A DNA stretch of 64,000 bases. Origin: an uncultured Bacilli bacterium. Lineage in GTDB: Bacteria > Bacillota_I > Bacilli_A > RF39 > UBA660. Each line of letters begins with the position of its first letter. Position 1 is the first letter of the stretch. Below, piece by piece: positions 3,016-59,913 of this stretch. Under the pieces are notes generated by a model. That model saw only the letters and a list, made by a program, of their open reading frames with translations, ran no database searches and was not told where the DNA came from. Both the position numbers and the translations under genes were made by a program. Location: the NCBI GenBank assembly GCA_947586655.1, contig CANPXR010000001.1, forward strand, positions 1,638 to 65,637, written 5' to 3'.

Positions 3016-3089
3016 ACTTTTTAGCTCCTTTCGCCATGACTAATGTTAGTCATAGATATAAAATCTTCTATATTATAACAATAGTTAAA

Positions 3090-3860
3090 CTATTTTGCAA
3101 GTATTTTTTCATTAATAAGTTTAATGGCACTTTTAGCCATTGCACGATAACCCTCTTTTGTTGGATGAATTTCAAGAACGCTAGGAAGATAATTATCATT
3201 TGCTAAGAAAACATCATGAATGTCAACGTACGTCATATCATATTTTTTAACGATGTTTTCCATCTTGGAGTTTGCGTAAACAATTACGGGTTCAACGGTG
3301 TTCGCAAGCGATGAAGAAAAATTGGTAAACGGATTATAAAAACCAAATACCATTATTTGCTCTTTACAAGATTTTCTTAACTCATAAAGTAGTTTATCTA
3401 CGTCTAATATGGTTTCATCAACATATGTATAAATGTCATCAAACTCATTTAAGTCAAATTCATTTCCGACGTTTAACTTATAAAACAAATCATTAGCACC
3501 TATACTTACCGTAACTAAATCCGCCTTTATAAGAGCATTTTTAATAGTGATTTTTTTATTATCAACCTTTATTTCCTTATTAGTATTCAAATCATTTAAT
3601 AGATCTGTGCTACGATAACCACTTTTAGAAAATTTTTTAGTGTAGAACTCCAAAACTTCTTTATCCCTTAAATATTCTGCTATGTAATCACCATAACTTT
3701 CTTCAATCGTATTATTAGGTGTTTGTCCCGCGGCTAAAGAATCACCTAAAGATAAATAGTAAACTTTTCTATCCCTGGTAATAAAAAAAATAATTAACAA
3801 AATTATACCCGTAATAATAAAACCTATTAAAAGTTTATATCTTCTTTTCAAATTTTTCAC
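3090..3860 (-). CDS. Membrane-anchored SGNH/GDSL-family hydrolase
   Basis: N-terminal TM helix; GDSL block (YLSLGDSLAAG); SGNH-like spacing. Confidence 0.55.
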   Translation of the reverse strand: MKNLKRRYKLLIGFIITGIILLIIFFITRDRKVYYLSLGDSLAAGQTPNNTIEESYGDYIAEYLRDKEVLEFYTKKFSKSGYRSTDLLNDLNTNKEIKVDNKKITIKNALIKADLVTVSIGANDLFYKLNVGNEFDLNEFDDIYTYVDETILDVDKLLYELRKSCKEQIMVFGFYNPFTNFSSSLANTVEPVIVYANSKMENIVKKYDMTYVDIHDVFLANDNYLPSVLEIHPTKEGYRAMAKSAIKLINEKILAK

Positions 3861-3889
3861 CCCAAAATAAAATAGTATTTATTACAATA

Positions 3890-5170
3890 CTATTCTATTT
3901 CTTCAAGTTTTATTTTAGCACCTATGTTAGTTAGTTTTTCAATTATATTTTCGTATCCTCTTAATATATAATCAGCATTTTCTATGGTAGTTTTACCATC
4001 CGCAATTAATCCCGCAATGACAAGGCAGGCACCAGCCCTTAAATCCGTTGCCTTAACATTTTTACCCTTTAACTTAGTAGGTCCTACAATAACAGCTTTA
4101 GAATTGGTTACGGTTTCAGCGGTTGCACCCATTTTATTTAATTCAATTAAATTTAAAAATCTATTTTCCCAAATTGTTTCATTTATGGTAGACTTACCGG
4201 TTGCTTGGGTAAGTAAAGCCGCCATTGGCTGCTGTAAGTCAGTAGGAAAGCCAGGGTAAACTTGTGTTTTAATATTGGTTTGTTTAAGCTTTAAAGGAGC
4301 ATTTATCTTTATGAAATCCACTCCTATTTGCATAGGAACACCCATGTCATCCAACTTTGAGATTAAAGATTCCACATGGTCAGGAATAATGTTTGTTATG
4401 GTTATATCTTTTCCAATGGCACTAGCTAAAATCATGTACGTACCTGTTTCTACGTAGTCAGGAACAACCTCATGAAAGCACGAATGAAGATGCTTTACCC
4501 CAACTATTTTTATTTCGCTTGTTCCAGCTCCACTTATTTTTGCTCCCATATTATTTAAAAAAGTAGCGACGTTAACAACATGGGGTTCTTTAGCGGCGTT
4601 TGAAATAATAGTTGTACCTTCTGCCTTAACCGCAGCTAGCATAAGATTAATGGTAGCACCAACTGAGGCAAAGTCTAAGTTTATCTTTGCTCCCCTTAAA
4701 TTATCAGCCGTAATAATAAATAAATTATCATTTTCTTCAACTTTAGCACCTAGTGCCCTAAAACCCTTTAGGTGAAGGTTAATTGGTCTTGCACCAATCG
4801 AACATCCTCCAGGAAAATACATTTCAACTTTTTTAAACCGACTTAAAAGTGCACCCATAAAATAATAAGATGCTCTAAGTTTTTTTGACATATTTTCTGG
4901 AATAAGCTTATTTTCAATTTTAGAAGAATCTATTCTTATTACATCCTCACTTCTTTTAACCTTAGCACCCAAAAACGTCAACATTTCATCTAAAGCGTTA
5001 ATATCAGAAATATTAGGTACGTTAGCAATAGTTACTTCCTCGTCACATAAAACAGCCGCAGGAACGAGTGCTACGGCACTATTTTTAGAACCACTTATCT
5101 TTATTTTTCCGCTTAGTTGTCTGCCACCTTCGATTATTATCCTGTGCATATTACTCCTCCATATCTTCAT
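3890..5170 (-). CDS. murA: UDP-N-acetylglucosamine 1-carboxyvinyltransferase. The likely true start is the internal Met at ~5149.
   Basis: 426 aa; conserved MurA/EPSP-fold sequence (…KISGSKNSAVALVPAAVL…LRASYY…). Confidence 0.9.
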   Translation of the reverse strand: MKIWRSNMHRIIIEGGRQLSGKIKISGSKNSAVALVPAAVLCDEEVTIANVPNISDINALDEMLTFLGAKVKRSEDVIRIDSSKIENKLIPENMSKKLRASYYFMGALLSRFKKVEMYFPGGCSIGARPINLHLKGFRALGAKVEENDNLFIITADNLRGAKINLDFASVGATINLMLAAVKAEGTTIISNAAKEPHVVNVATFLNNMGAKISGAGTSEIKIVGVKHLHSCFHEVVPDYVETGTYMILASAIGKDITITNIIPDHVESLISKLDDMGVPMQIGVDFIKINAPLKLKQTNIKTQVYPGFPTDLQQPMAALLTQATGKSTINETIWENRFLNLIELNKMGATAETVTNSKAVIVGPTKLKGKNVKATDLRAGACLVIAGLIADGKTTIENADYILRGYENIIEKLTNIGAKIKLEEIE

Positions 5171-28040: not shown

Positions 28041-28628
28041 TTAGTTTTCCGCCCTTATTATACAAAATCCCTTTTTCTTTGTAATAACATCAACGTTACC
28101 ATATACTTTTTTCATATCACTTATTAGCGAATCTGCTCCTTGCTTTTTTCTTACGACGAGCCATAACTGCCCACCGCTTTTTAAATGATTTTTAGCTTCC
28201 ATTATGATTTCGTAAAGTTTTTGTTTACCAACTCTTATTGGAGGATTAGATAAGATATAATCATATTTATTATTTATGTTTTTATATGCATCTGATTCAA
28301 AAACATTTGCTTTTAATCCCTGTTCATTTAAAGACCTTTTTGATAAGTTAATTGCCCTTTCGTTTACGTCTGACATATCCACAGTAAAACCTTTTTTTGA
28401 TGCATATATTCCAATCGGTCCACATCCACAGCCTATATCTAATAATTTTTTTTCTTGTGGAAAAGTATACTCAAATGTTGTTAATAATAACTCCGTACCA
28501 AAATCCAACTCATCTTTTGAAAAAACTCCATTATCAGTATAAAAATAGTAGCTTGTCCCATTAATAATTGTATTTATTTTCCTAATATTAGATTTTAAGT
28601 TATCGTCATTTGTAAAATAATGTGTCAT
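28041..28628 (-). CDS. ybxB: Class I SAM-dependent methyltransferase (YbxB/RsmC-like)
   Basis: DIGCGCGPIG SAM motif and NPPI motif. Sits between rplL and rpoB exactly as B. subtilis ybxB does. Confidence 0.75.
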   Translation of the reverse strand: MTHYFTNDDNLKSNIRKINTIINGTSYYFYTDNGVFSKDELDFGTELLLTTFEYTFPQEKKLLDIGCGCGPIGIYASKKGFTVDMSDVNERAINLSKRSLNEQGLKANVFESDAYKNINNKYDYILSNPPIRVGKQKLYEIIMEAKNHLKSGGQLWLVVRKKQGADSLISDMKKVYGNVDVITKKKGFCIIRAEN

Positions 28629-28629
28629 T

Positions 28630-28965
28630 TTAATCTTCCTTATATCCTAAAGTTTTCATTCTTAATAGTTCTTTTAAAAATTCTGATAATCCTTTTATGT
28701 CTTCTTTTCTTAATAATTCATAATTTATAAGTAATCTTCCCGTACAACCATTACCATCTTCAAAAGGATGAATCTTTTCAAATTCAATATGGTATTTACA
28801 ACCTTTTCAAATAAGTTATCAATTACTTCGTTATTATAATTATAAACAAAGTATAACATCATATTAGGTACGTCAAAGGATTTTGGAGGAATATTATCAC
28901 TACCTTTTATAATAACATTTACATTTCTATATTCTTCTGTTTCTTTTATATCTTGATTTATTATT
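28630..28965 (-). pseudogene. Decayed Fic/Doc-family gene: no start codon, at least one frameshift, catalytic Arg replaced by Cys
   Basis: Minus-strand translation gives …IPPKSFDVPNMMLYFVYNYNNEVIDNLFEK, then a frameshift, then GCKYHIEFEKIHPFEDGNGCTGRLLINYELL…KED*. HPFEDGNG matches the Fic HPFx[DE]GNGR signature, except that R is C here. The stop is 1 nt before the ybxB ATG. Confidence 0.5.
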
Positions 28966-29067
28966 TAAAATAAAATTAATCATAAAGCAGTCCTCCGACA
29001 AAAACATTATAGCATAAATAAAAGGAATACGAAATAATCCGTATTCCATAAGTACTTATTTACTAAA

Positions 29068-29436
29068 TTATGCAAGTTCAACGGTTGCTCCAGCTTCTTC
29101 TAACTTAGCCTTAATGTCATTTGCTTCATCCATCGGTGCGTTTTCTTTGATGTTACCACCTTCATCAGCTAATTTCTTAGCTTCCATTAATCCTAAACCA
29201 GTAATATCTCTAATTACCTTAATTACTTGGATTTTAGTTGCTCCTGCATCCTTTAATACTACTGTTGCAGAAGTTTTTTCTTCTTCAGCTGCTCCTTGAA
29301 CTGGTGCTGCTGCTACTGCTACGGCACTTGGATCAACTCCAAATTCCTCTTTCATTTTGTCTACTAATTCTTTTACCTCAAGAATTTTCATTTCTTTAAT
29401 TGCATCAATTATTTCTTGTGTACTTATTTTTGCCAT
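29068..29436 (-). CDS. rplL: 50S ribosomal protein L7/L12
   Basis: 122 aa; Ala/Glu-rich hinge and a conserved C-terminal domain. Confidence 0.95.
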   Translation of the reverse strand: MAKISTQEIIDAIKEMKILEVKELVDKMKEEFGVDPSAVAVAAAPVQGAAEEEKTSATVVLKDAGATKIQVIKVIRDITGLGLMEAKKLADEGGNIKENAPMDEANDIKAKLEEAGATVELA

Positions 29437-35658: not shown

Positions 35659-35684
35659 GAAAAAAATAGCAAAATTATTGCTAT
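35659..35684 (-). terminator. Terminator overlapping the stop of the 723-aa adhesin gene
   Basis: ATAGCAAaattaTTGCTAT hairpin followed by a T7 run on the minus strand. Confidence 0.45.
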
Positions 35685-37852
35685 TTTTTAAATTTTTTTC
35701 TAAGTATTATCACAATTGCAAGTAAAACTAACAACATAGAAATAATTAGAATATAATTTGGAACCTTTCTTCCCGTAATTATTGTAACGACTAATTCCGC
35801 AAAAGATTTACTTCCTGTTTTTCTAACCTTTTGATCAACCATTTCTACTAAGTAATAGCCATCTTTATCACTATCTTTGATGGTAACAAGTGAGGTTGAG
35901 TCTTTATCTTCAATAAGTTCATATCCATCTGGTGCTTCTTTTTCAACAACCCTGTATTCACCAGGTGATAGCTTTGAGATAAGCGCAATACCTTTTTCTT
36001 CGCCTTCAGGATTTCCATCTTTAGTAGTTATTATATATGTTGCACCATTATCACTTTCTTTTAGATTCTCATCATAAACATAATTACCTTCTGCTGTTTC
36101 TTTTAATAACATATCTTTATAGACATTATTAATCCTTTTTTGAAGAGAAAATTTACCACCTGCTATAAGATTACCATCTTCATCTTTCTTTTGAAATTCT
36201 AAACCCGCGAACCCATTAGTAAACGATACGTTTTTATCGGATCCACAAACGTTAATTTTTTTAGTAGGTTCAGATGGCAACGTAAGACCTTGCGGTGCCT
36301 TTGTTTCTGATATGGTATAACTACAATTTGTTAAAGTGTATACTTTAAACCTGCCCTTACAAGTTTTTAGCTTCGTAGTAGCATCCTTTTCATCTTTGTT
36401 AGAAATATCATACTCACCAGGTTTTATCTCTTTAAAATAAAGTGTTTTACCATTTTCCATTATCTCAAACTCAGGTCCAGTGTAATTATCAGTACCACAA
36501 CCATCATCTAAATCAATAATATTTCCTTTTTCATCAACCGTCTTTTTAGTTAAGTTAAACACCTTGTTAGAATCAGTTATGGATATAGTTCCATAACTCG
36601 TAGATCCTGCTATATTTGATGCTGAAACAGTTACAGCACGTGGAGTTGAATTAAGCTCATATCCAGGTGGAGCATATGTTTCCTTTACATAGTAGGTACC
36701 TGGATTAGGAATACTTTGAAATGTAGCAGTACCAGTTTTATCAGTTGTTACTGTACTTAATACTTTTGTACAAGAACTATTTGAGCAAATACTAAATTTT
36801 GCACCACTTAACGCTTTTTGATCTAAAGATGCTTTTTTTGTTATTTTTAATTGGTATTTAGGAGTATATACTTTTATGTACGCATTATTTGTTGTACCTA
36901 CTATACCAATAAGATTTTGTGAATCAGCATGGTAATATGCTTTAAGCGTACCACCATTTTTGTTATAAATAGCAATCTTTACCATCTTTGGACTATTTTC
37001 TTCAATAGGATTTGAACTTGAAATAGTAATAGAATCATTTGTTTTTGAAACCTCTAATCCGGATTGATTCTGAATAGACCAATAACGAAAATTGGTATCC
37101 TTAATGGTAACCGAATATTTTTTACTTGACGTATTCCAAGAAAGTGCTATCTTTTTTGCTTGCTGCTCTGTACTAAACTGATTAGGAAATTTATTAAAAG
37201 AATTATTTATGGCATCCACTATACGTTTATATTCAACGGCAAGTGTCTCTGGATAATTTTTAGCCACATACACATTATAAAAACTATTACTATGATTGTT
37301 ATCTGGTACATAACTTTTAAAACTAGTTCTTTCACCAGTTGCAACTTCCCAAATTAATCCCTGTGCAGCATAAGTCCTATATATTGAAAGTAATTGTGAG
37401 CCAGAGGAAGGACAGTTAACCGTTTTTTTATTATTATTAGTAATGGTTGGAAGCAAGCTTTGATCCGTTATTTTTTCAGCAAAGGTTAGAATCTGCCTTA
37501 TAAGATTCTTCTTTGTATTGTCTATTTTAATACCTTTATTATTAAGATTTTCAAAAGGCTGTTCAGTATAACTTGCACTATTTAAGTGCCTCCCTGGTTC
37601 AACACAATAAACATGCTGTCTATTAATGTTATAAACACCTATATATCCGCCATCTCTTTCACCAGAAATTTGATTCAATTTATATTTAGTACCTTTTAAG
37701 CATGAATGGTATACCCACCCAGAAGAATTAGCTGCCTTTACGTTAAAAAGGAAAAAGAAGAATGTAATAATTACTAAAGTTACTAAAACAATATTCTTTC
37801 TAAATATTTTACTCATTAACATCACCTTCTTCTTCACTTGTTCCCGCAACAA
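35681..37852 (-). CDS. Cell-surface protein. Signal peptide, N-terminal Cys-containing domain (possible thioester domain), two SpaA/Cna-B-like domains, C-terminal TM with a basic tail. The true start is probably near 37816–37822.
   Basis: 723 aa. SpaA-like blocks (LSGAKFSI…KTGTATFQSIPNPGTYYVKETYAPPGYEL; GEYRVVEKEAPDGYEL). C-terminus …ILIISMLLVLLAIVIILRKKFKK with no LPXTG. YCVEPG and AQGLIW resemble the Cys and Gln motifs of thioester domains. Confidence 0.6.
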   Translation of the reverse strand: MLREQVKKKVMLMSKIFRKNIVLVTLVIITFFFFLFNVKAANSSGWVYHSCLKGTKYKLNQISGERDGGYIGVYNINRQHVYCVEPGRHLNSASYTEQPFENLNNKGIKIDNTKKNLIRQILTFAEKITDQSLLPTITNNNKKTVNCPSSGSQLLSIYRTYAAQGLIWEVATGERTSFKSYVPDNNHSNSFYNVYVAKNYPETLAVEYKRIVDAINNSFNKFPNQFSTEQQAKKIALSWNTSSKKYSVTIKDTNFRYWSIQNQSGLEVSKTNDSITISSSNPIEENSPKMVKIAIYNKNGGTLKAYYHADSQNLIGIVGTTNNAYIKVYTPKYQLKITKKASLDQKALSGAKFSICSNSSCTKVLSTVTTDKTGTATFQSIPNPGTYYVKETYAPPGYELNSTPRAVTVSASNIAGSTSYGTISITDSNKVFNLTKKTVDEKGNIIDLDDGCGTDNYTGPEFEIMENGKTLYFKEIKPGEYDISNKDEKDATTKLKTCKGRFKVYTLTNCSYTISETKAPQGLTLPSEPTKKINVCGSDKNVSFTNGFAGLEFQKKDEDGNLIAGGKFSLQKRINNVYKDMLLKETAEGNYVYDENLKESDNGATYIITTKDGNPEGEEKGIALISKLSPGEYRVVEKEAPDGYELIEDKDSTSLVTIKDSDKDGYYLVEMVDQKVRKTGSKSFAELVVTIITGRKVPNYILIISMLLVLLAIVIILRKKFKK

Positions 37853-40800
37853 CTAATATCTGCAAATCATCATCATCAACCGCAGCATAGTTAACGAAGG
37901 AACCCGCTTCTTTTCTTGATATATCAAATGCAATGGTAAGATATTTCTTCTCTCCACCAGCAATTAATTGATCAGATAACGTATTATTTTCTAGGTACCC
38001 TTGTTCCGTCATTACCCAACCTTTATTTTCTTCATAACTATCGTTAAATGTCATGCCATCTGGCACATAATCTTTTACTAAATAAATATAGCCCGGATAA
38101 TAACCAACATTTTCAAGTTCTATCGTATAAATAACTTTTATACTTACATTACTTATATCTTTTACGTCTAACTTAGCTAACGTAACGTTACCATAATCTT
38201 TTATAGTAGATACACCTAATTTGTTAGTAGTTATTGCTCTTGTTACGTACTTTGTTAGTTTTACAGAATATATTTTTCTTAGTGCAAGTCCAAGGTTAAC
38301 ATTACTAACAGTTCTAGTATTATTAGTAATTTGAATATTATCTGTTCTAATTATTGGAAGTATTTTATTATCTTCATTAGACGGGTCATCAACTTCACAA
38401 TCATTTCCATCACATGTTTCTTCGTTATCTTTAGATTCATTGTCGGTACTTTTTGCATTAGTGTTAACCTTATTAGGTTCTGTTGCCTTAAAAGAAGATG
38501 TAATAGATTTATCTAGTAATACTTGATATGGTGAAATCCCATATTTAGCGGTATTATAATCCGCAACAACGTAATACGTTCCAGGATCTAGATCAGATAA
38601 ACTATAATTTCCTTTTTCATCGGTAGTTGTAGTTTTTATCAATTCATCATTAGATGCATTATATAACTTTAACGTTACACCAGAAACCTTTTTTTCGGTT
38701 GAATCCATAATACCATTAGAATCAAAATCTTCCCAAACAGTACCAGTTATTCTTTTACTAATAACACTAATAGTTAGTGGTTTTATGGTTTTTACTATTT
38801 CTTTACCATTTTCATTTCTAATTAAATATGAACTAATCTTATATGAATCATCCGTTTTGTTACCAATTGGATTTATCTTTATACTTTGTTCATAAGTTTT
38901 TCCAGGCTCTAAACTGATTCCACTAACCTTAATGGCAGAAACACCTAAATAACCATCGCCTTGGTATTTAGAGCATTGTTCCCATGCTATTTCCTCACTT
39001 GACATTTTATCATTTAATAATGCTGGTAAACTAGTTGTACATAAAGCATTTGTTGGCACATCAGAAAGAGTATAAGTTCCAGTATAATTATTATTTTCGT
39101 TCTCGACTGAATTATATGGAAGAATGGTTATAACTTCTAAATTAGAATGCGTTATTTTGTTACTATCATTATTATATAATTTTGTACTTACACTAAAACT
39201 AGTTTCTTTAGATATAGCAGGATATGGTGTATATAGTGAATAAGAAATTACTTCATTATTTTGGTATGTTATGTTTCTGGTTGTTGTCCTTAACTCAGCA
39301 CTTGAAGAATCACTAACTTCAGTTGTCGACGTCGCTTGAATCATGACCTTAATAGGAAGCTTAGTACCAGAAGAAATATCAATGTCATAGCTCGTTTCAA
39401 ATACAACTGGGTCAATCCACTCATTGATACGTTTTCCTTTTAGTACATACCTAAGTTTTGTACTACCACCAGTATTGCTAGTAGTTGGAAGATCATAATT
39501 TTCATTATAAACATAATTAACACCCTTAGGCAATTCAACTTCAACAATAACCTCTTTTAAATCAGAAATTCCTGCAATATTGGTATTAACTAATTCAGCT
39601 GGCATGCTAACGCTTGGATATATTTTCCAAACAGAGCTGTTTACGTCAGCAGCATTAATTACAACATCTTGGTTAATATCATTAATAAATACATCCGTTC
39701 TAGCCTTAAACGCAGTAACGTTTATAGAACTATTACTAGATACAGTTCTTGTTTGAGATCCGCTATTTTCATTTTCATCAAATGATGATGAAGAAGTAAG
39801 CGTAATTTTTCCGGCGTTATTTCCAACTGATGTTACTAATCTAATTCTAAAATCAACTACCGTTCCAGGCTTAACATTTTTTAAAGTGTATGTTAGGTAA
39901 GATAATCTTAGTTTATCATTTTTTGATAAAGCATCATTTAAAGCATCAAAAGTATCATAAGATTTTGCATCACCTACTGTACAAGAAGTGCCTGTTTCAC
40001 CCATTTCACATGCATAATATTTTACCGTTACGTTGTCCTTTAAATCTTCGTTTATGTAATAAGGTCCTTGTTCCTCTACGTTCGTACCATATTCAATCAT
40101 GGTAAAAGGTGCGGTTGGATTACTTGATGTTGATATAGCGTCGCCAATAGGAATTGTTGTTGTAAGACTCTTTATGTCATTATCTCCATCACTAGAATAA
40201 CTAAATAAAGACCTTAAAACAACTTCTTCACCATAAGATAAATAATCATTTTCTAATAACTTATTTAGTTTGCCATCTTCCTCTTTATTAAAGGTTAATT
40301 CATTTGTCTTTGTTCCAGCAGAATAAAATTTATTAATAACACCATCAGACTCGGCGTTACCAACTTTTAATTTAACTGTTATATTATCAGTTATACCTTC
40401 ACTACGCTCTGATTTAGCATTTACAAAATATGATCCTAATGCAACAAAATCATTCCCATATAATCTAATTGATCCATCTGATTTTATTCCTTCTATATTA
40501 AAATCATATTTAGTTTGTATATTAACGGTGTTTTTTGCTTCTAATTCGAAATCATTTTTATCAGTTATTGTATAAACAGCGTTATAAGTACCCGCCTTTG
40601 TTTTATCAATGGCTGTTTCTTCGCTTGTTGCAGGATTATAATATTTAACTGAACATTTATTTTCAGTATTACACTCTGTGTCCACATCGTCAACTGCTAT
40701 GTGAGGATTACCAAAAGAAGAACCATCAGACGAGGTATAAATCGTACTTGCAGTAAGAGTCTGGGCTTTTGTGTAAGATAAACTTTCAAGCACTTTAACT

Positions 40801-42317
40801 GTCCTCGTTAAAGTAAATCTTTCCTGACCTTCAAAACTTGGCTCATTATCACCCTCAGGATTAAGTGTATAAGTTACCGTATACGTGCCAACGCTATTAG
40901 TATCAATTGACGGAACCGGTGCCTCTTCGCCTTCTTTTTTAATTACACTTTCGTAGCTTAAATTAGAAGTTTTACCATTTTTGGAAATACCTTCTTCGCT
41001 ATATTTTTGCCCCTTTAACAAGATGATTTCTTTATTACCATTTAATGAATAAGTATTCTCTCCTACTTTGACGGTTGTTTTTTCACTTACTTTTACGTTT
41101 CTTTTAACCGTTGTAGAACCAGTTGCAGAAGTATACTTATAACTAACGATATATTCTCCAACCGCATTAGTTATATTTTTTTCTTCGATTTGTGTCTCAA
41201 CATTATCTTTTTTAGTTATTTTTTTCTCACATGAATTATTTTTAGCTTTACATATATCTTCGCCATTACCGGTTGCCGATACACCATATTCAGTGTATTC
41301 TTCCCCTACTTCTAAGTTTATTGTTTTATCACCAATTAAGTATAAATCTGGATTTGTATTTTCCGTTACCGTTCCAGACACTCCATCAGAAGATTTAGTT
41401 AAACCCGTAACTTTACCCGAATTATAAACAGAATAACGTTGATAATCATTTTTGTAATGTGGCATTGAGGTTAATAAATTAGAACTTTTGTCATATAATC
41501 CAAAGTACTTACTATTATTACTTTCTAATTCAATTTGAGAATTTATATTATTTACACTTTGTGTTGCCTCTAGCACTAATTTTATATTAGCGTCAAAATA
41601 AAGTCCTTCTAGACTATTTTGATTTTTTAACCTGCTTTTATCAAAGCCTACTAATATACCAAATGGTGCTAATCTTCCGCTGGCATAATCAGAAGATTTG
41701 TACGCTGTTCCAGATATAATTTTTTGCGTTAGTTCTACCTTTTCACTTTCTACTGTAACGGTAGGAATACTACCTATTGTATTATCACCAGATTTTATAG
41801 TTGGCTTTATTTCTTTACCATTTTCAACGTTTCTTACGTTTAGGTATAATTGTTTGGTTTGTTCAACGTTTGGTTCATTATCATAAATGGTAACTTCTAC
41901 GGTTTTTCCACCGTTTGATAATTCATACTTAGAAGTAGGCTCAGAAGTATCCCAAACAGCATCAATATCATCAGGGACACTAGCTTCTATTTCAACGGTT
42001 GATGAAGTCGTTTGATAAGACACTTCATACACTAACGTACTAAAACTTTTAATCGTTGTAATTTCTTGGGTTGAATCTACCTTTTTTGCCTTAACAGCTT
42101 TTAAAGTTGCAACCCCTGTTGAGTCACCTGCAGCATAAACTATTAAAGCAACTATACTAGAAATTAAAAATATACCAATGAATGCTGATATGTACTTATG
42201 CTCTTTAATAAAATTAGTTATCCTTACCTTTTGGATAAGAATCCAATCAACTATTCTAGATTTTAAATTTACCTTTGACATATTCATAGTATAGCCCTCC
42301 AATTTTACTTTATACAC
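37809..42317 (-). CDS. Giant surface adhesin (1502 aa). N-terminal signal anchor, many Ig-like repeats, Cna-B/SdrD-B-like domain, C-terminal DUF11-like domain.
   Basis: Cna-B-type block KVSGVTLKLYNASNDELIKTTTTDEKGNYSLSDLDPGTYYV. C-terminal NVSIKVIYTIELENVGYYPGYIYLVKDYVPDGMTF resembles the DUF11 repeat. Ser/Thr/Asn-rich. Overlaps the downstream adhesin gene. Confidence 0.6.
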   Translation of the reverse strand: MYKVKLEGYTMNMSKVNLKSRIVDWILIQKVRITNFIKEHKYISAFIGIFLISSIVALIVYAAGDSTGVATLKAVKAKKVDSTQEITTIKSFSTLVYEVSYQTTSSTVEIEASVPDDIDAVWDTSEPTSKYELSNGGKTVEVTIYDNEPNVEQTKQLYLNVRNVENGKEIKPTIKSGDNTIGSIPTVTVESEKVELTQKIISGTAYKSSDYASGRLAPFGILVGFDKSRLKNQNSLEGLYFDANIKLVLEATQSVNNINSQIELESNNSKYFGLYDKSSNLLTSMPHYKNDYQRYSVYNSGKVTGLTKSSDGVSGTVTENTNPDLYLIGDKTINLEVGEEYTEYGVSATGNGEDICKAKNNSCEKKITKKDNVETQIEEKNITNAVGEYIVSYKYTSATGSTTVKRNVKVSEKTTVKVGENTYSLNGNKEIILLKGQKYSEEGISKNGKTSNLSYESVIKKEGEEAPVPSIDTNSVGTYTVTYTLNPEGDNEPSFEGQERFTLTRTVKVLESLSYTKAQTLTASTIYTSSDGSSFGNPHIAVDDVDTECNTENKCSVKYYNPATSEETAIDKTKAGTYNAVYTITDKNDFELEAKNTVNIQTKYDFNIEGIKSDGSIRLYGNDFVALGSYFVNAKSERSEGITDNITVKLKVGNAESDGVINKFYSAGTKTNELTFNKEEDGKLNKLLENDYLSYGEEVVLRSLFSYSSDGDNDIKSLTTTIPIGDAISTSSNPTAPFTMIEYGTNVEEQGPYYINEDLKDNVTVKYYACEMGETGTSCTVGDAKSYDTFDALNDALSKNDKLRLSYLTYTLKNVKPGTVVDFRIRLVTSVGNNAGKITLTSSSSFDENENSGSQTRTVSSNSSINVTAFKARTDVFINDINQDVVINAADVNSSVWKIYPSVSMPAELVNTNIAGISDLKEVIVEVELPKGVNYVYNENYDLPTTSNTGGSTKLRYVLKGKRINEWIDPVVFETSYDIDISSGTKLPIKVMIQATSTTEVSDSSSAELRTTTRNITYQNNEVISYSLYTPYPAISKETSFSVSTKLYNNDSNKITHSNLEVITILPYNSVENENNNYTGTYTLSDVPTNALCTTSLPALLNDKMSSEEIAWEQCSKYQGDGYLGVSAIKVSGISLEPGKTYEQSIKINPIGNKTDDSYKISSYLIRNENGKEIVKTIKPLTISVISKRITGTVWEDFDSNGIMDSTEKKVSGVTLKLYNASNDELIKTTTTDEKGNYSLSDLDPGTYYVVADYNTAKYGISPYQVLLDKSITSSFKATEPNKVNTNAKSTDNESKDNEETCDGNDCEVDDPSNEDNKILPIIRTDNIQITNNTRTVSNVNLGLALRKIYSVKLTKYVTRAITTNKLGVSTIKDYGNVTLAKLDVKDISNVSIKVIYTIELENVGYYPGYIYLVKDYVPDGMTFNDSYEENKGWVMTEQGYLENNTLSDQLIAGGEKKYLTIAFDISRKEAGSFVNYAAVDDDDLQILVVAGTSEEEGDVNE

Positions 42318-59825: not shown

Positions 59826-59907
59826 ATAAAATAAAAGCACACACGAAAAGAGGTTATTAAGGCTGCTATTTTTCAATCCTGACCTGATTCTAACATTTCC
59901 GTTGTGC
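59826..59907 (-). ncRNA. ffs: Short (4.5S-type) signal recognition particle RNA
   Basis: Minus strand contains the universally conserved domain IV element GGUCAGG-auu-GAAA-aau-AGCAGCC (compare E. coli GGUCAGGUCCGGAAGGAAGCAGCC). Flanking 12-bp helix GCACAACGGAAA/UUUUCGUGUGUGC, then U-run CUUUUAUUUU. Position next to tadA/dnaX matches the Bacillus scr locus. The promoter predicts +1 at the G of GCACA. Confidence 0.55.
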
Positions 59908-59913
59908 AATGCT

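What the first reader, a model, noticed from the sequence alone, without database searches (positions are those of the whole stretch)
28630..28965. Decayed Fic/Doc-family gene wedged between rplL and ybxB in the core rif-region
The minus strand encodes the highly specific Fic signature HPFEDGNG, followed by CTGRLL where the catalytic Arg is Cys. An N-terminal segment is in a different frame, so there is at least one frameshift, and no start codon is present. The stop sits 1 nt before the ybxB ATG. This is the relic of a Fic/Doc AMPylation or toxin gene inside an otherwise ultra-conserved ribosomal-protein and RNA-polymerase cluster. Either it was once co-transcribed with rplL-ybxB-rpoBC, or a residual short Fic-like peptide is still made.
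Basis: seen in the sequence. Interest (0 to 1): 0.55.

Follow-up and report, generated by a model that had tools for sequence, protein, structure and literature searches.

The report
Decayed Fic gene between rplL and ybxB
This is a genuine dead remnant of a Fic (protein-AMPylating, candidate phage-defence) gene in the ribosomal-protein/RNA-polymerase cluster of an uncultured gut bacterium; it is an ordinary pseudogene, but the same gene is intact and under selection at this exact spot in sister species.

Summary
On the minus strand, 28983-28630 is the wreck of a 224-aa class II Fic gene. A conceptually repaired peptide matches Pfam Fic (E=5e-15).

Compared with an intact allele in a sister species (L105, protein P0221), the window carries five lesions:
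- a 1-nt deletion in an A-run (frameshift)
- CGT>TGT, giving HPFEDGNG-C
- a 63-nt in-frame deletion between direct repeats
- a 15-nt in-frame deletion between direct repeats
- a 242-nt deletion between 10-nt repeats, which removes the inhibitory helix; it is polymorphic within the species

The Shine-Dalgarno sequence (SD), the ATG, an extended -10 box and the upstream hairpin all survive at 29047-28981.

Eight independent assemblies share the frameshift. Across six of those strains the remnant varies at the rate of four-fold synonymous sites, so it is evolving neutrally.

Intact orthologues lie between rplL and ybxB in at least three related species (dN/dS 0.05-0.09). Two other relatives have no fic there. 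The window's copy is anomalously close to L105's (4-fold sites 14% vs 40% in the flanks, p=0.003). This suggests it arrived by recombination and then decayed.

The family best matches the unverified PADLOC candidate PDC-S04. Elsewhere it sits on mobile elements. Verdict: a pseudogene in a mildly interesting context.

The parts
29024..29047 (-). Hairpin (10-bp stem, 4-nt loop) followed by the T-run 29023-29015. It is the only terminator-like element after rplL (stop codon 29070-29068).
   Evidence: terminator scan. (dG -13.2 kcal/mol, z=-5.9). Identical in the intact-fic relative L105 and conserved in L101, L109 and L002.
29006..29014 (-). Extended -10 promoter-like box TGCTATAAT, directly after the terminator T-run. 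Inferred promoter of fic and, by read-through, of ybxB.
   Evidence: TG[C/T]TATAAT is conserved at the same place in L105, L101, L109 and L002. There were 0 segregating sites in 84 nt covering terminator, promoter and SD across 6 strains. Function is inferred, not shown.
28981..28996 (-). Original fic ribosome-binding site GGAGGA (28996-28991) and start codon ATG (28983-28981).
   Evidence: Same SD-ATG-MINFILNNK as the intact P0221 gene in L105.
28927..28983 (-). 18-codon stub ORF, MINFILNNKSRYKRNRRI*. The first 9 codons are the true Fic N-terminus; the rest is out-of-frame read-through after the deletion.
28957..28966 (-). Single surviving copy of the 10-nt direct repeat AAATAATAAA. It marks the junction of a 242-nt deletion that removed Fic codons ~10-89, including the SNAIEG inhibitory-helix motif.
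   Evidence: The deletion is present in the window, L094, L097, L098 and L099 and absent in L095/L096.
28803..28961 (-). Middle segment of the Fic remnant (INQDIKETEEYRNVNVIIKGSDNIPPKSFDVPNMMLYFVYNYNNEVIDNLFEK), in a frame of its own.
28795..28797 (-). Frameshift lesion. One A has been lost from an A4 run (intact GCAAAATAC; window GTAAATAC).
   Evidence: Shared by all 8 assemblies of the species.
28729..28770 (-). Fic signature HPFEDGNGCTGRLL. The first Arg of the signature has been replaced by Cys (TGT 28746-28744; the intact allele has CGT).
28706..28720 (-). Junction of a 63-nt in-frame deletion (21 codons after ...INYEL) between two copies of the 15-nt repeat TGAATTATTAAGAAA that are both present in the intact allele.
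28665..28674 (-). Junction of a 15-nt in-frame deletion (codons STKEL) between AAAGAAYTAT repeats.
28630..28641 (-). End of the Fic remnant. The ybxB Shine-Dalgarno AAGGAAG (28641-28635) lies inside the last fic codons, and the stop TAA (28632-28630) is 1 nt before the ybxB ATG (28628).
   Evidence: In intact L105 the TAA abuts the ATG directly.
28041..28628 (-). ybxB-like small-domain SAM methyltransferase (195 aa). Intact downstream neighbour.
   Evidence: PF05175 MTS, E=1e-45. (RsmC-like, below the equivalog cut-off).
29068..29436 (-). rplL (L7/L12, 122 aa). Intact upstream neighbour.

Best explanation
The interval is a non-functional pseudogene of a ~224-aa class II Fic protein. Such proteins are AMP-transferases carrying their own N-terminal inhibitory helix, and this one's best profile match is the PADLOC phage-defence candidate PDC-S04.

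In several sister species of the same uncultured low-GC gut Bacilli group, the gene is intact between the rplL terminator and ybxB. There it has its own extended -10 box and SD, its stop touches the ybxB start, and it is under strong purifying selection.

The copy in the window's species is much closer to the allele of one sister species (L105) than the flanking housekeeping genes are. It was therefore most likely brought in by homologous recombination through the conserved rplL and ybxB flanks (inferred).

It was then inactivated by a 1-nt deletion in an A-run, by an Arg-to-Cys change in the catalytic signature, and by slipped-strand deletions of 63 and 15 nt between short direct repeats. All sampled strains carry these lesions. 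A further 242-nt deletion between 10-nt repeats is still polymorphic.

Within the species the remnant accumulates variation at the neutral (four-fold-site) rate. What still works is the 5' end: the hairpin serves as the rplL terminator and the -10 box probably drives ybxB, so the remnant is probably transcribed as a ~375-nt leader (inferred). The last codons also provide the ybxB ribosome-binding site. Only an 18-residue stub peptide is likely to be translated (inferred).
For: Fic identity:
- Pfam PF02661, E=4.9e-15 for the joined peptide.
- PADLOC PDC-S04 model PDLC04840, E=1.3e-19 for the remnant and ~1e-57 over full length for the orthologues.

Intact orthologues at the same locus:
- P0211, P0218 and P0221 all lie in the order rplL-fic-ybxB-rpoB.
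- dN/dS is 0.046-0.087 among them.

Lesions and repeat junctions are defined base by base against L105.

The lesions are real and fixed. Eight assemblies from different samples share them, and only the 242-nt deletion varies.

Neutral evolution:
- Segregating sites across 6 strains are 10/354 in the remnant, 8/263 at four-fold sites (p=1) and 8/1440 at codon positions 1+2.
- Polarised codon changes are 5 nonsynonymous: 5 synonymous on the pseudogene branch, against 1:7 on the L105 branch.

Introgression:
- Fic dS between the window species and L105 is 0.20, against 0.59-1.06 in rplL, ybxB and rpoB.
- Four-fold differences are 5/35 in fic against 140/350 in the flanks, Fisher p=0.003. The control pairs show no such contrast.
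- Sliding identity is 91-100% from the end of rplL to ~100 nt into ybxB, against ~70-90% outside.
- The nearest species representative, L011, has no fic.

Class II assignment:
- SNAIEG aligns to the S31/E35 inhibitory motif of C. difficile Fic.
- The predicted fold matches CdFic and FICD.

Terminator and promoter.
Against: - There are no expression data. The promoter, the leader and translation of the stub are inferred from consensus matches and conservation only.
- A single pairwise comparison (window vs L001) showed fewer changes in the remnant than expected from four-fold sites (3/439 vs 3.5%, p=0.002). The six-strain analysis did not reproduce this, but the samples are small.
- The 5:5 vs 1:7 contrast in polarised changes is not significant on its own.
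- The direction of the inferred recombination (into the window lineage) rests on one fic-less sister genome.
- The defence role of PDC-S04 is unverified. It tested negative in one E. coli strain (PMC12409345).
Confidence: 0.9

Rival explanations
1. The gene is still expressed through a programmed -1 ribosomal frameshift near TTT GAA AAG G (28811-28802), giving a shortened Fic-like protein.
For: A -1 slip of Lys-tRNA on A_AAG would join the two frames with no stop in between, and the product would align without a gap to intact homologues. The frameshift is shared by all strains.
Against: - The intact allele shows the lesion is the simple loss of one A from an A4 run a few bases downstream.
- The product would lack the first signature Arg (Cys in the window; Ala-Cys in L095/L096) and 26 core and C-terminal residues.
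- In most strains the 242-nt deletion puts the start codon out of frame with the segment upstream of the slip site.
- Polymorphism is at the neutral rate.
- The error-laden relative L002 would need a +1 shift at the same place, so no recoding signal is conserved.
Confidence: 0.02
2. The frameshift and deletions are assembly or sequencing artefacts, and the gene is actually intact in this organism.
For: The lesion lies in a short homopolymer. One relative's contig (L002, long-read) does show homopolymer frame breaks in fic, ybxB and rpoB that are errors, because the same protein is intact in other assemblies (P0211).
Against: Eight contigs from at least seven samples and different assemblers carry identical lesions. 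rpoB, ybxB and the ribosomal protein genes around it are intact in the window. Deletions of 63, 15 and 242 nt are not homopolymer errors.
Confidence: 0.01
3. The fic gene was inherited vertically from the common ancestor of the whole group and simply decayed here, with clean losses in L011 and L012. No recombination with an L105-like lineage was involved.
For: Fic sits at the identical site, with a homologous hairpin and promoter, in all fic-bearing lineages. For the pairs L101-L105 and pseudogene-L101, fic divergence equals flank divergence. The rif-region copies are closer to each other (77-93% aa) than to any copy elsewhere (<=71%).
Against: The pseudogene and L105 fic differ at only 14% of four-fold sites, against 40% in the flanks (p=0.003), although a pseudogene should diverge faster, not slower. 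The high-identity tract has edges inside rplL and ybxB. The closest relative, L011, has a short spacer with no trace of fic.
Confidence: 0.2
4. The remnant is retained because its RNA has acquired a regulatory role, as a structured leader or attenuator for ybxB-rpoBC, so it is not freely decaying.
For: The region between rplL and rpoB is a known site of transcriptional regulation in other bacteria (own knowledge). The pairwise window-L001 comparison showed a deficit of substitutions. Terminator, promoter and SD show 0/84 segregating sites.
Against: Six-strain polymorphism in 28983-28630 equals that of four-fold sites. A 242-nt chunk is present or absent among strains. Close relatives L011 and L012 manage with a 78-97 nt spacer. 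No Rfam family matches there.
Confidence: 0.07

Closest known systems
Clostridium difficile Fic (CdFic; PDB 4X2C/4X2D/4X2E), a class II Fic AMP-transferase
   Same: It is the nearest solved structure by sequence (E=2.2e-19 over residues 9-212 of a full-length family member). By fold it is among the best matches, with TM up to 0.80 normalised to the target. It has about the same size (~225-235 aa). It has the same N-terminal SxxxEG inhibitory motif: SNAIEG aligns to CdFic SNKIEG, the residues mutated in the S31A/E35A entries. It has the same HPFxDGNGR signature.
   Different: Sequence identity is only ~22-27%. The window copy is a pseudogene lacking the inhibitory helix, the first signature Arg and 26 residues after the motif. 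No activity has been tested for this subfamily.
PADLOC phage-defence candidate PDC-S04 (model PDLC04840), with SoFic as the validated Fic-type defence gene
   Same: The intact rif-locus orthologues match PDLC04840 end to end (E~1e-57, 8-218 of 224 aa), and the remnant matches it partially (E=1.3e-19). Family members elsewhere lie on integrative or mobilisable elements next to AbiTii, HTH regulators, integrases and relaxases.
   Different: PDC-S04 is a prediction that has never been verified and showed no defence in E. coli NILS69 (PMC12409345). The match to the SoFic model is much weaker (~1e-29) and SoFic is a larger protein (361-position model). Here the gene sits in a core operon, not a defence island.
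FICD/HYPE and other class II Fic proteins (BT_2513, C. elegans Fic-1)
   Same: Same Fic core and the same placement of the inhibitory helix.
   Different: The eukaryotic proteins carry TPR and membrane-anchor regions and act on BiP. There is no evidence for any target here.
Bacillus-type rif region (rplKAJL - ybxB - rpoBC)
   Same: Same gene order, including the L10 leader (Rfam RF00557) and a small methyltransferase between rplL and rpoB. Thirteen relatives have only a ~65-100 nt rplL-ybxB spacer with a terminator hairpin.
   Different: In this group of uncultured Bacilli the spacer has accepted extra genes: fic (intact in three lineages, decayed here), a lipoprotein-like ORF (L104/L002) and, between ybxB and rpoB, a 230-aa ORF (L109-L111).

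Membership tests
Fic/Doc family (Pfam PF02661) | Significant match to the family profile | tested here: met
   The joined remnant scores 56.6 bits, E=4.9e-15 (cut-off 24). The motif frame alone scores 40.9 bits. Intact orthologues score 72-74 bits.
Fic/Doc family (active enzyme) | Complete signature HPFx[D/E]GN[G/K]R (as written in PMC7479194) | tested here: not met
   The window has HPFEDGNG-C (TGT 28746-28744). L095/L096 have HPFEDGNA-C. The intact orthologues have HPFEDGNGR.
Fic/Doc family (active enzyme) | Uninterrupted reading frame covering the Fic core | tested here: not met
   A 1-nt deletion, 63-nt and 15-nt deletions and a 242-nt deletion are present. No start codon serves the motif frame.
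Class II Fic (intramolecular N-terminal inhibitory helix) | [S/T]xxxE[G/N] motif N-terminal to the Fic core in the same polypeptide (definition from own knowledge; supported by the CdFic S31A/E35A entries) | tested here: met
   This is met for the ancestral gene. SNAIEG is present in L095/L096 and in all intact orthologues, and it aligns to CdFic SNKIEG. In the window itself the motif lies within the 242-nt deletion.
Class II Fic | Fic fold with an N-terminal helix preceding the core | tested here: met
   The AlphaFold model of orthologue P0221 has pLDDT 76.6 and pTM 0.76. The best PDB matches are FICD and CdFic, TM 0.68-0.80. The inhibitory-motif loop itself is modelled with low confidence (residues 23-28).
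Class I Fic toxin-antitoxin / Doc-Phd modules | Separate small antitoxin gene next to the toxin gene | tested here: not met
   Upstream lie the rplL terminator and promoter. Downstream is the 195-aa methyltransferase. The inhibitory motif is in the same ORF.
PADLOC PDC-S04 (candidate single-gene phage defence) | Match to a PDC-S04 profile | tested here: met
   Against PDLC04840 the orthologues score E=3e-57 and 8e-58 over full length. The window remnant scores E=1.3e-19 over profile positions 83-179.
PADLOC PDC-S04 (candidate single-gene phage defence) | Protection against phage | not testable with these tools
   This has never been verified experimentally, and one native-host test was negative (PMC12409345).
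Pseudogene | Disabling lesions relative to an intact orthologue, fixed in the population | tested here: met
   (lesions). (eight assemblies).
Pseudogene | Evolution at the neutral rate | tested here: met
   Segregating sites are 2.8% in the remnant, 3.0% at four-fold sites and 0.56% at codon positions 1+2. Caveat: one pairwise comparison gave a deficit.

The most novel reading that the evidence does not exclude
In this group of uncultured gut Bacilli, a class II Fic AMP-transferase may be a selected, translationally coupled member of the rplL-ybxB-rpoBC transcription unit (dN/dS 0.05-0.09 in three species). It may move between species by homologous recombination through the ultra-conserved flanking genes.

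Two readings are not excluded:
- The Fic enzyme acts on a component of the translation or transcription machinery encoded around it.
- A defence or toxin-type gene uses a core operon as a safe harbour, and its conserved flanks as a vehicle for spread between species, with repeated gain, loss and decay. The window captures the decay stage.
Probability: 0.2. Interest if true: 0.55.

Novelty: new member of a known kind. Interest (0 to 1): 0.3.

Why it matters
In itself it matters little. It is one more decaying accessory gene, and it should be annotated as a pseudogene rather than as a 'hypothetical protein' (gene callers emit 45-166 aa junk ORFs from it).

It is useful as a well-documented example of three things:
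- Deletional decay through slipped-strand mispairing at short direct repeats in an AT-rich genome, with one deletion caught while still polymorphic.
- Part of an inserted cassette (hairpin, -10 box, last codons carrying the SD) staying on as the working terminator, promoter and RBS of essential neighbours.
- Accessory, candidate-defence genes entering and moving between species inside a core operon.

The intact orthologues (P0211, P0218, P0221) are the more interesting objects. Their conserved coupling to ybxB and rpoB invites a test of what this Fic modifies.

Tried and rejected
1. Programmed -1 frameshift at A_AAG. It looked attractive because the joined product has the same length as intact homologues. 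It was rejected once the intact allele showed a plain 1-nt deletion in a nearby A-run, and because the other lesions make any product inactive.

2. Purifying selection on the remnant. The window-L001 pair showed 3/439 differences against 3.5% at four-fold sites (p=0.002). With six strains the remnant's polymorphism equals that of four-fold sites, so I treat the pairwise result as sampling noise.

3. 'This Fic family is pervasively pseudogenised'. The first protein search returned only truncated or split ORFs, with an in-frame stop in L003-L006 and frameshifts in L007-L010. A search with a near-full-length query found thousands of intact 224-227 aa members. The pattern was therefore an artefact of the short query.

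4. L002 as evidence for or against intactness. Its fic has four frame breaks, all at homopolymers, and rpoB on the same long-read contig is broken in at least four places. The identical protein is intact in other assemblies (P0211).

5. Metagenome scan for more rif-locus copies. Sixty loci encoding 60-70% identical Fic proteins were found, and none was flanked by rplL, ybxB or rpoB.

6. Antisense 36-aa hydrophobic ORF at 28620-28730 (+). This is the expected by-product of reading Lys/Glu-rich AT-rich coding sequence backwards. I did not pursue it.

7. Source names for the orthologues. None are on record.

Full report
**Setting**

All genes in this part of the window are on the minus strand. 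Their order is nusG, rplK, rplA, an L10 leader (Rfam RF00557, 30117-29980), rplJ, rplL (29436-29068), the interval in question, a 195-aa MTS-domain methyltransferase (ybxB-like, 28628-28041), rpoB (27845-24207) and rpoC. The window has 30.5% G+C and the interval 22%.

**Checking the observation**

- The minus strand reads HPFEDGNGCTGRLL at 28770-28729.
- The upstream stretch INQDIKETEEYRNVNVIIKGSDNIPPKSFDVPNMMLYFVYNYNNEVIDNLFEK is in another frame.
- The motif frame alone scores 40.9 bits against Pfam Fic. The two frames joined score 56.6 bits (E=4.9e-15, cut-off 24), so the out-of-frame piece belongs to the same gene.
- The stop TAA (28632-28630) is 1 nt from the ybxB ATG (28628).
- The motif frame has no start codon before an ATG that opens only 8 codons.

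One statement is wrong, however: the original start codon is still there. An ATG at 28983, preceded by GGAGGA (28996-28991), opens MINFILNNK, which is the true N-terminus of the family. It then runs out of frame to a stop after 18 codons.

**Same species, other samples**

An exact look-up of the window's L7/L12 protein returned seven further contigs from other samples. Aligned with the window they are about 99% identical.

- All carry the same frameshift, the same Cys codon and the same downstream deletions.
- The only length difference is a 242-nt segment. It is present in L095/L096 (=L001) and absent from the window, L094, L097, L098 and L099.
- This segment is bounded by two copies of AAATAATAAA, of which the window keeps one (28966-28957).
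- It encodes Fic residues ~10-89, including the SNAIEG motif.

The lesions are therefore real and fixed, and one deletion is still segregating in the population.

**Is the remnant constrained?**

The window-L001 pair differs at 3/439 positions in the interval but at 3.5% of four-fold sites (p=0.002). That looked like constraint.

Across six strains the picture changes:

| Region | Segregating sites | Rate |
|---|---|---|
| Remnant (28983-28630) | 10/354 | 2.8% |
| Four-fold sites | 8/263 | 3.0% (p=1 vs remnant) |
| Codon positions 1+2 | 8/1440 | 0.56% |
| Terminator + promoter + SD (84 nt) | 0/84 | 0% |

I conclude that the body of the remnant evolves neutrally and that only its 5' control region may be conserved.

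**Relatives**

A scan of one genome per species with the ybxB protein found 13 related loci, all from uncultured 'Bacilli' metagenome-assembled genomes (MAGs). The window's own species is not among them.

- The two closest (L011, 87-88% nt in the flanking genes; L012, 81-83%) have no fic. They have only a 78-97 nt spacer made of a terminator hairpin, TGTTATAAT and an SD.
- More distant relatives (L013-L023) also have short spacers.
- A protein search with an error-corrected copy from the long-read contig L002 found intact 223-224 aa proteins: P0211 (28 contigs, including NCBI GCA_949298755.1), P0218 and P0221.
- All of these lie in the order rplL-fic-ybxB-rpoB.
- The fic stop is 0-5 nt from the ybxB start.
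- Among these three lineages fic has dN/dS 0.046-0.087, so there it is a working gene.

**The lesions, named against the intact allele**

L105 (P0221) has the same hairpin, -10 box, SD and N- and C-termini as the window. The alignment shows:

1. One A lost from GCAAAATAC (window 28797-28795).
2. CGT>TGT at the first Arg of the signature (28746-28744). L095/L096 additionally have GGT>GCT in the preceding codon.
3. A 63-nt deletion between two copies of TGAATTATTAAGAAA (junction 28720-28706), removing 21 residues after INYEL.
4. A 15-nt deletion between AAAGAAYTAT repeats (junction 28674-28665).
5. The 242-nt deletion described above.
6. One extra A between the stop and the ybxB ATG.

All three larger deletions lie between short direct repeats, as expected for slipped-strand mispairing (inference).

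**How the copy got here**

By flank identity the lineages group as (window, L011), (L101, L109, L012) and L105. Fic-bearing and fic-less genomes are therefore interleaved. The key comparisons are:

| Pair | Fic dS | Flank dS | Fic 4-fold differences | Flank 4-fold differences | Fisher p |
|---|---|---|---|---|---|
| Window species vs L105 | 0.20 | 0.59-1.06 | 5/35 | 140/350 | 0.003 |
| Pseudogene vs L101 (control) | 1.00 | 0.67-1.17 | 13/32 | 151/358 | 1.0 |
| L105 vs L101 (control) | 0.97 | 0.65-0.95 | 20/41 | 135/357 | 0.18 |

- Sliding identity between L095 and L105 is 91-100% from the 3' end of rplL to about 100 nt into ybxB, and about 70-90% elsewhere.
- A pseudogene should diverge faster than its neighbours, not more slowly.
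- The simplest reading is that this tract was exchanged between an L105-like lineage and the window's lineage after they split, by recombination in the conserved flanks, and was then inactivated.
- On the pseudogene branch polarised codon changes are 5 nonsynonymous to 5 synonymous. On the L105 branch they are 1 to 7. This is suggestive only.

**What kind of Fic**

- Full-length members are 224-227 aa and number in the thousands.
- The nearest solved structure by sequence is C. difficile Fic (4X2E, E=2.2e-19). SNAIEG aligns to its SNKIEG, the residues mutated in the S31A/E35A entries.
- An AlphaFold model of P0221 (pLDDT 76.6, pTM 0.76) matches FICD and CdFic best.
- This is the class II arrangement, with the inhibitory helix in the same chain, so no separate antitoxin is expected and none is present.
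- Against PADLOC the orthologues match the candidate system PDC-S04 over full length (E~1e-57), and the remnant matches it partially (E=1.3e-19).
- PDC-S04 has not been verified and gave no protection in one native-host test (PMC12409345).
- A class II Fic system, SoFic, has been reported as active against phage T5 (as cited in PMC11514479).
- Family members outside the rif locus lie beside integrases, relaxase/MobC, RepA_N, an AbiTii protein and HTH regulators.
- Sixty further metagenomic loci are not next to rplL, ybxB or rpoB.

The family therefore behaves as mobile accessory cargo. The rif-locus lineage is a narrow exception.

**What still functions in the interval (inference)**

- The hairpin 29047-29024 (dG -13.2 kcal/mol, z -5.9) with its T-run is the only terminator-like element after rplL.
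- TGCTATAAT (29014-29006) follows it, as TG[C/T]TATAAT does in every fic-bearing relative. The fic-less L011 and L012 have TGTTATAAT directly upstream of ybxB.
- The scan found no other promoter-like site on the minus strand between the remnant's 5' end and ybxB.
- ybxB is therefore probably transcribed from this box through the remnant.
- The ybxB SD AAGGAAG (28641-28635) lies in the last fic codons.

**Verdict**

It is ordinary as an object. The context is modestly interesting: an intact, selected Fic gene embedded in the rplL-ybxB-rpoB unit of sister species, signs of exchange between species, and stepwise decay caught in progress.

Noticed in passing
L109:5299-5991, L110:3395-4087, L111:2581-3273: In the P0218 lineage an extra 230-aa ORF sits between ybxB and rpoB. 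Its only family hint is a sub-threshold match to the SocA/Panacea antitoxin domain (E=0.004, 18.4 bits vs cut-off 25.7). There is no PADLOC match. The rif region of this bacterial group seems to accept accessory genes at more than one spacer.
   Followed up: partly
L104:3347-3925 and L002:5343-~6000; remnant in L109:~3810-3960: A 192-aa lipoprotein-like ORF (signal peptide ...LASFVGC) with its own TTGACA/TATTATAAT promoter lies between the rplL terminator and fic in some strains of the P0211 lineage. L109 keeps only its decayed 3' end, and L101, L105 and the window have lost it. There is no Pfam or PADLOC match.
   Followed up: partly
L003-L006:4623-5306: A common gut-metagenome Fic homologue (on more than 35 contigs) has an in-frame stop where the family has the invariant Gly of the ...IxGSxHIPP flap. 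It is therefore called as 111-aa and 101-aa ORFs. It is followed 11 nt later by a 246-aa MTS-type methyltransferase, in a non-ribosomal context. I did not examine whether the Fic-methyltransferase adjacency is more than coincidence.
   Followed up: no
L007-L009 and L010 (Fic at ~4826-5501 in L010): Other family members carry frameshifts near residues 60-75 (PREIYEAINHKK), which splits the inhibitory-helix part from the Fic core into two overlapping ORFs. In L007-L009 the same lesion is seen in three independent assemblies.
   Followed up: partly
L095:961-1557 (rplK region) vs L105: A second stretch of raised identity between the window species and the L105 lineage (87-99%, against 73-95% to the closer relative L011). 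This suggests further recombination tracts between these species in the ribosomal-protein cluster.
   Followed up: no
window 35681-42317 (-): Two large ORFs (1502 aa and 723 aa, overlapping by 44 nt) encode cell-surface proteins with SpaA/prealbumin-fold, SdrD-B and bacterial Ig-like domains. The second ends in a hydrophobic anchor. This is a conspicuous accessory block inside an otherwise housekeeping stretch.
   Followed up: partly
window 28620-28730 (+): A 36-codon, very hydrophobic antisense ORF (MCHFNLPYILKFSFLIVLLKILIILLCLLFLIIHNL) overlaps the ybxB start and the end of the fic remnant. It is most likely a by-product of reading Lys/Glu-rich AT-rich sequence backwards.
   Followed up: no
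window 3025-3055 (-), 59828-59913 (-): Rfam finds an L31-Firmicutes leader (36.1 bits, just above the gathering score) and the small SRP RNA. These are the only other RNA-family matches in the window besides the L10 leader.
   Followed up: no
whole window: The window's species appears to be absent from the one-genome-per-species collection. The best ybxB match there is 83% identical (L011, a rabbit-gut 'uncultured Bacilli' MAG), while at least seven metagenome samples contain ~99% identical contigs.
   Followed up: partly
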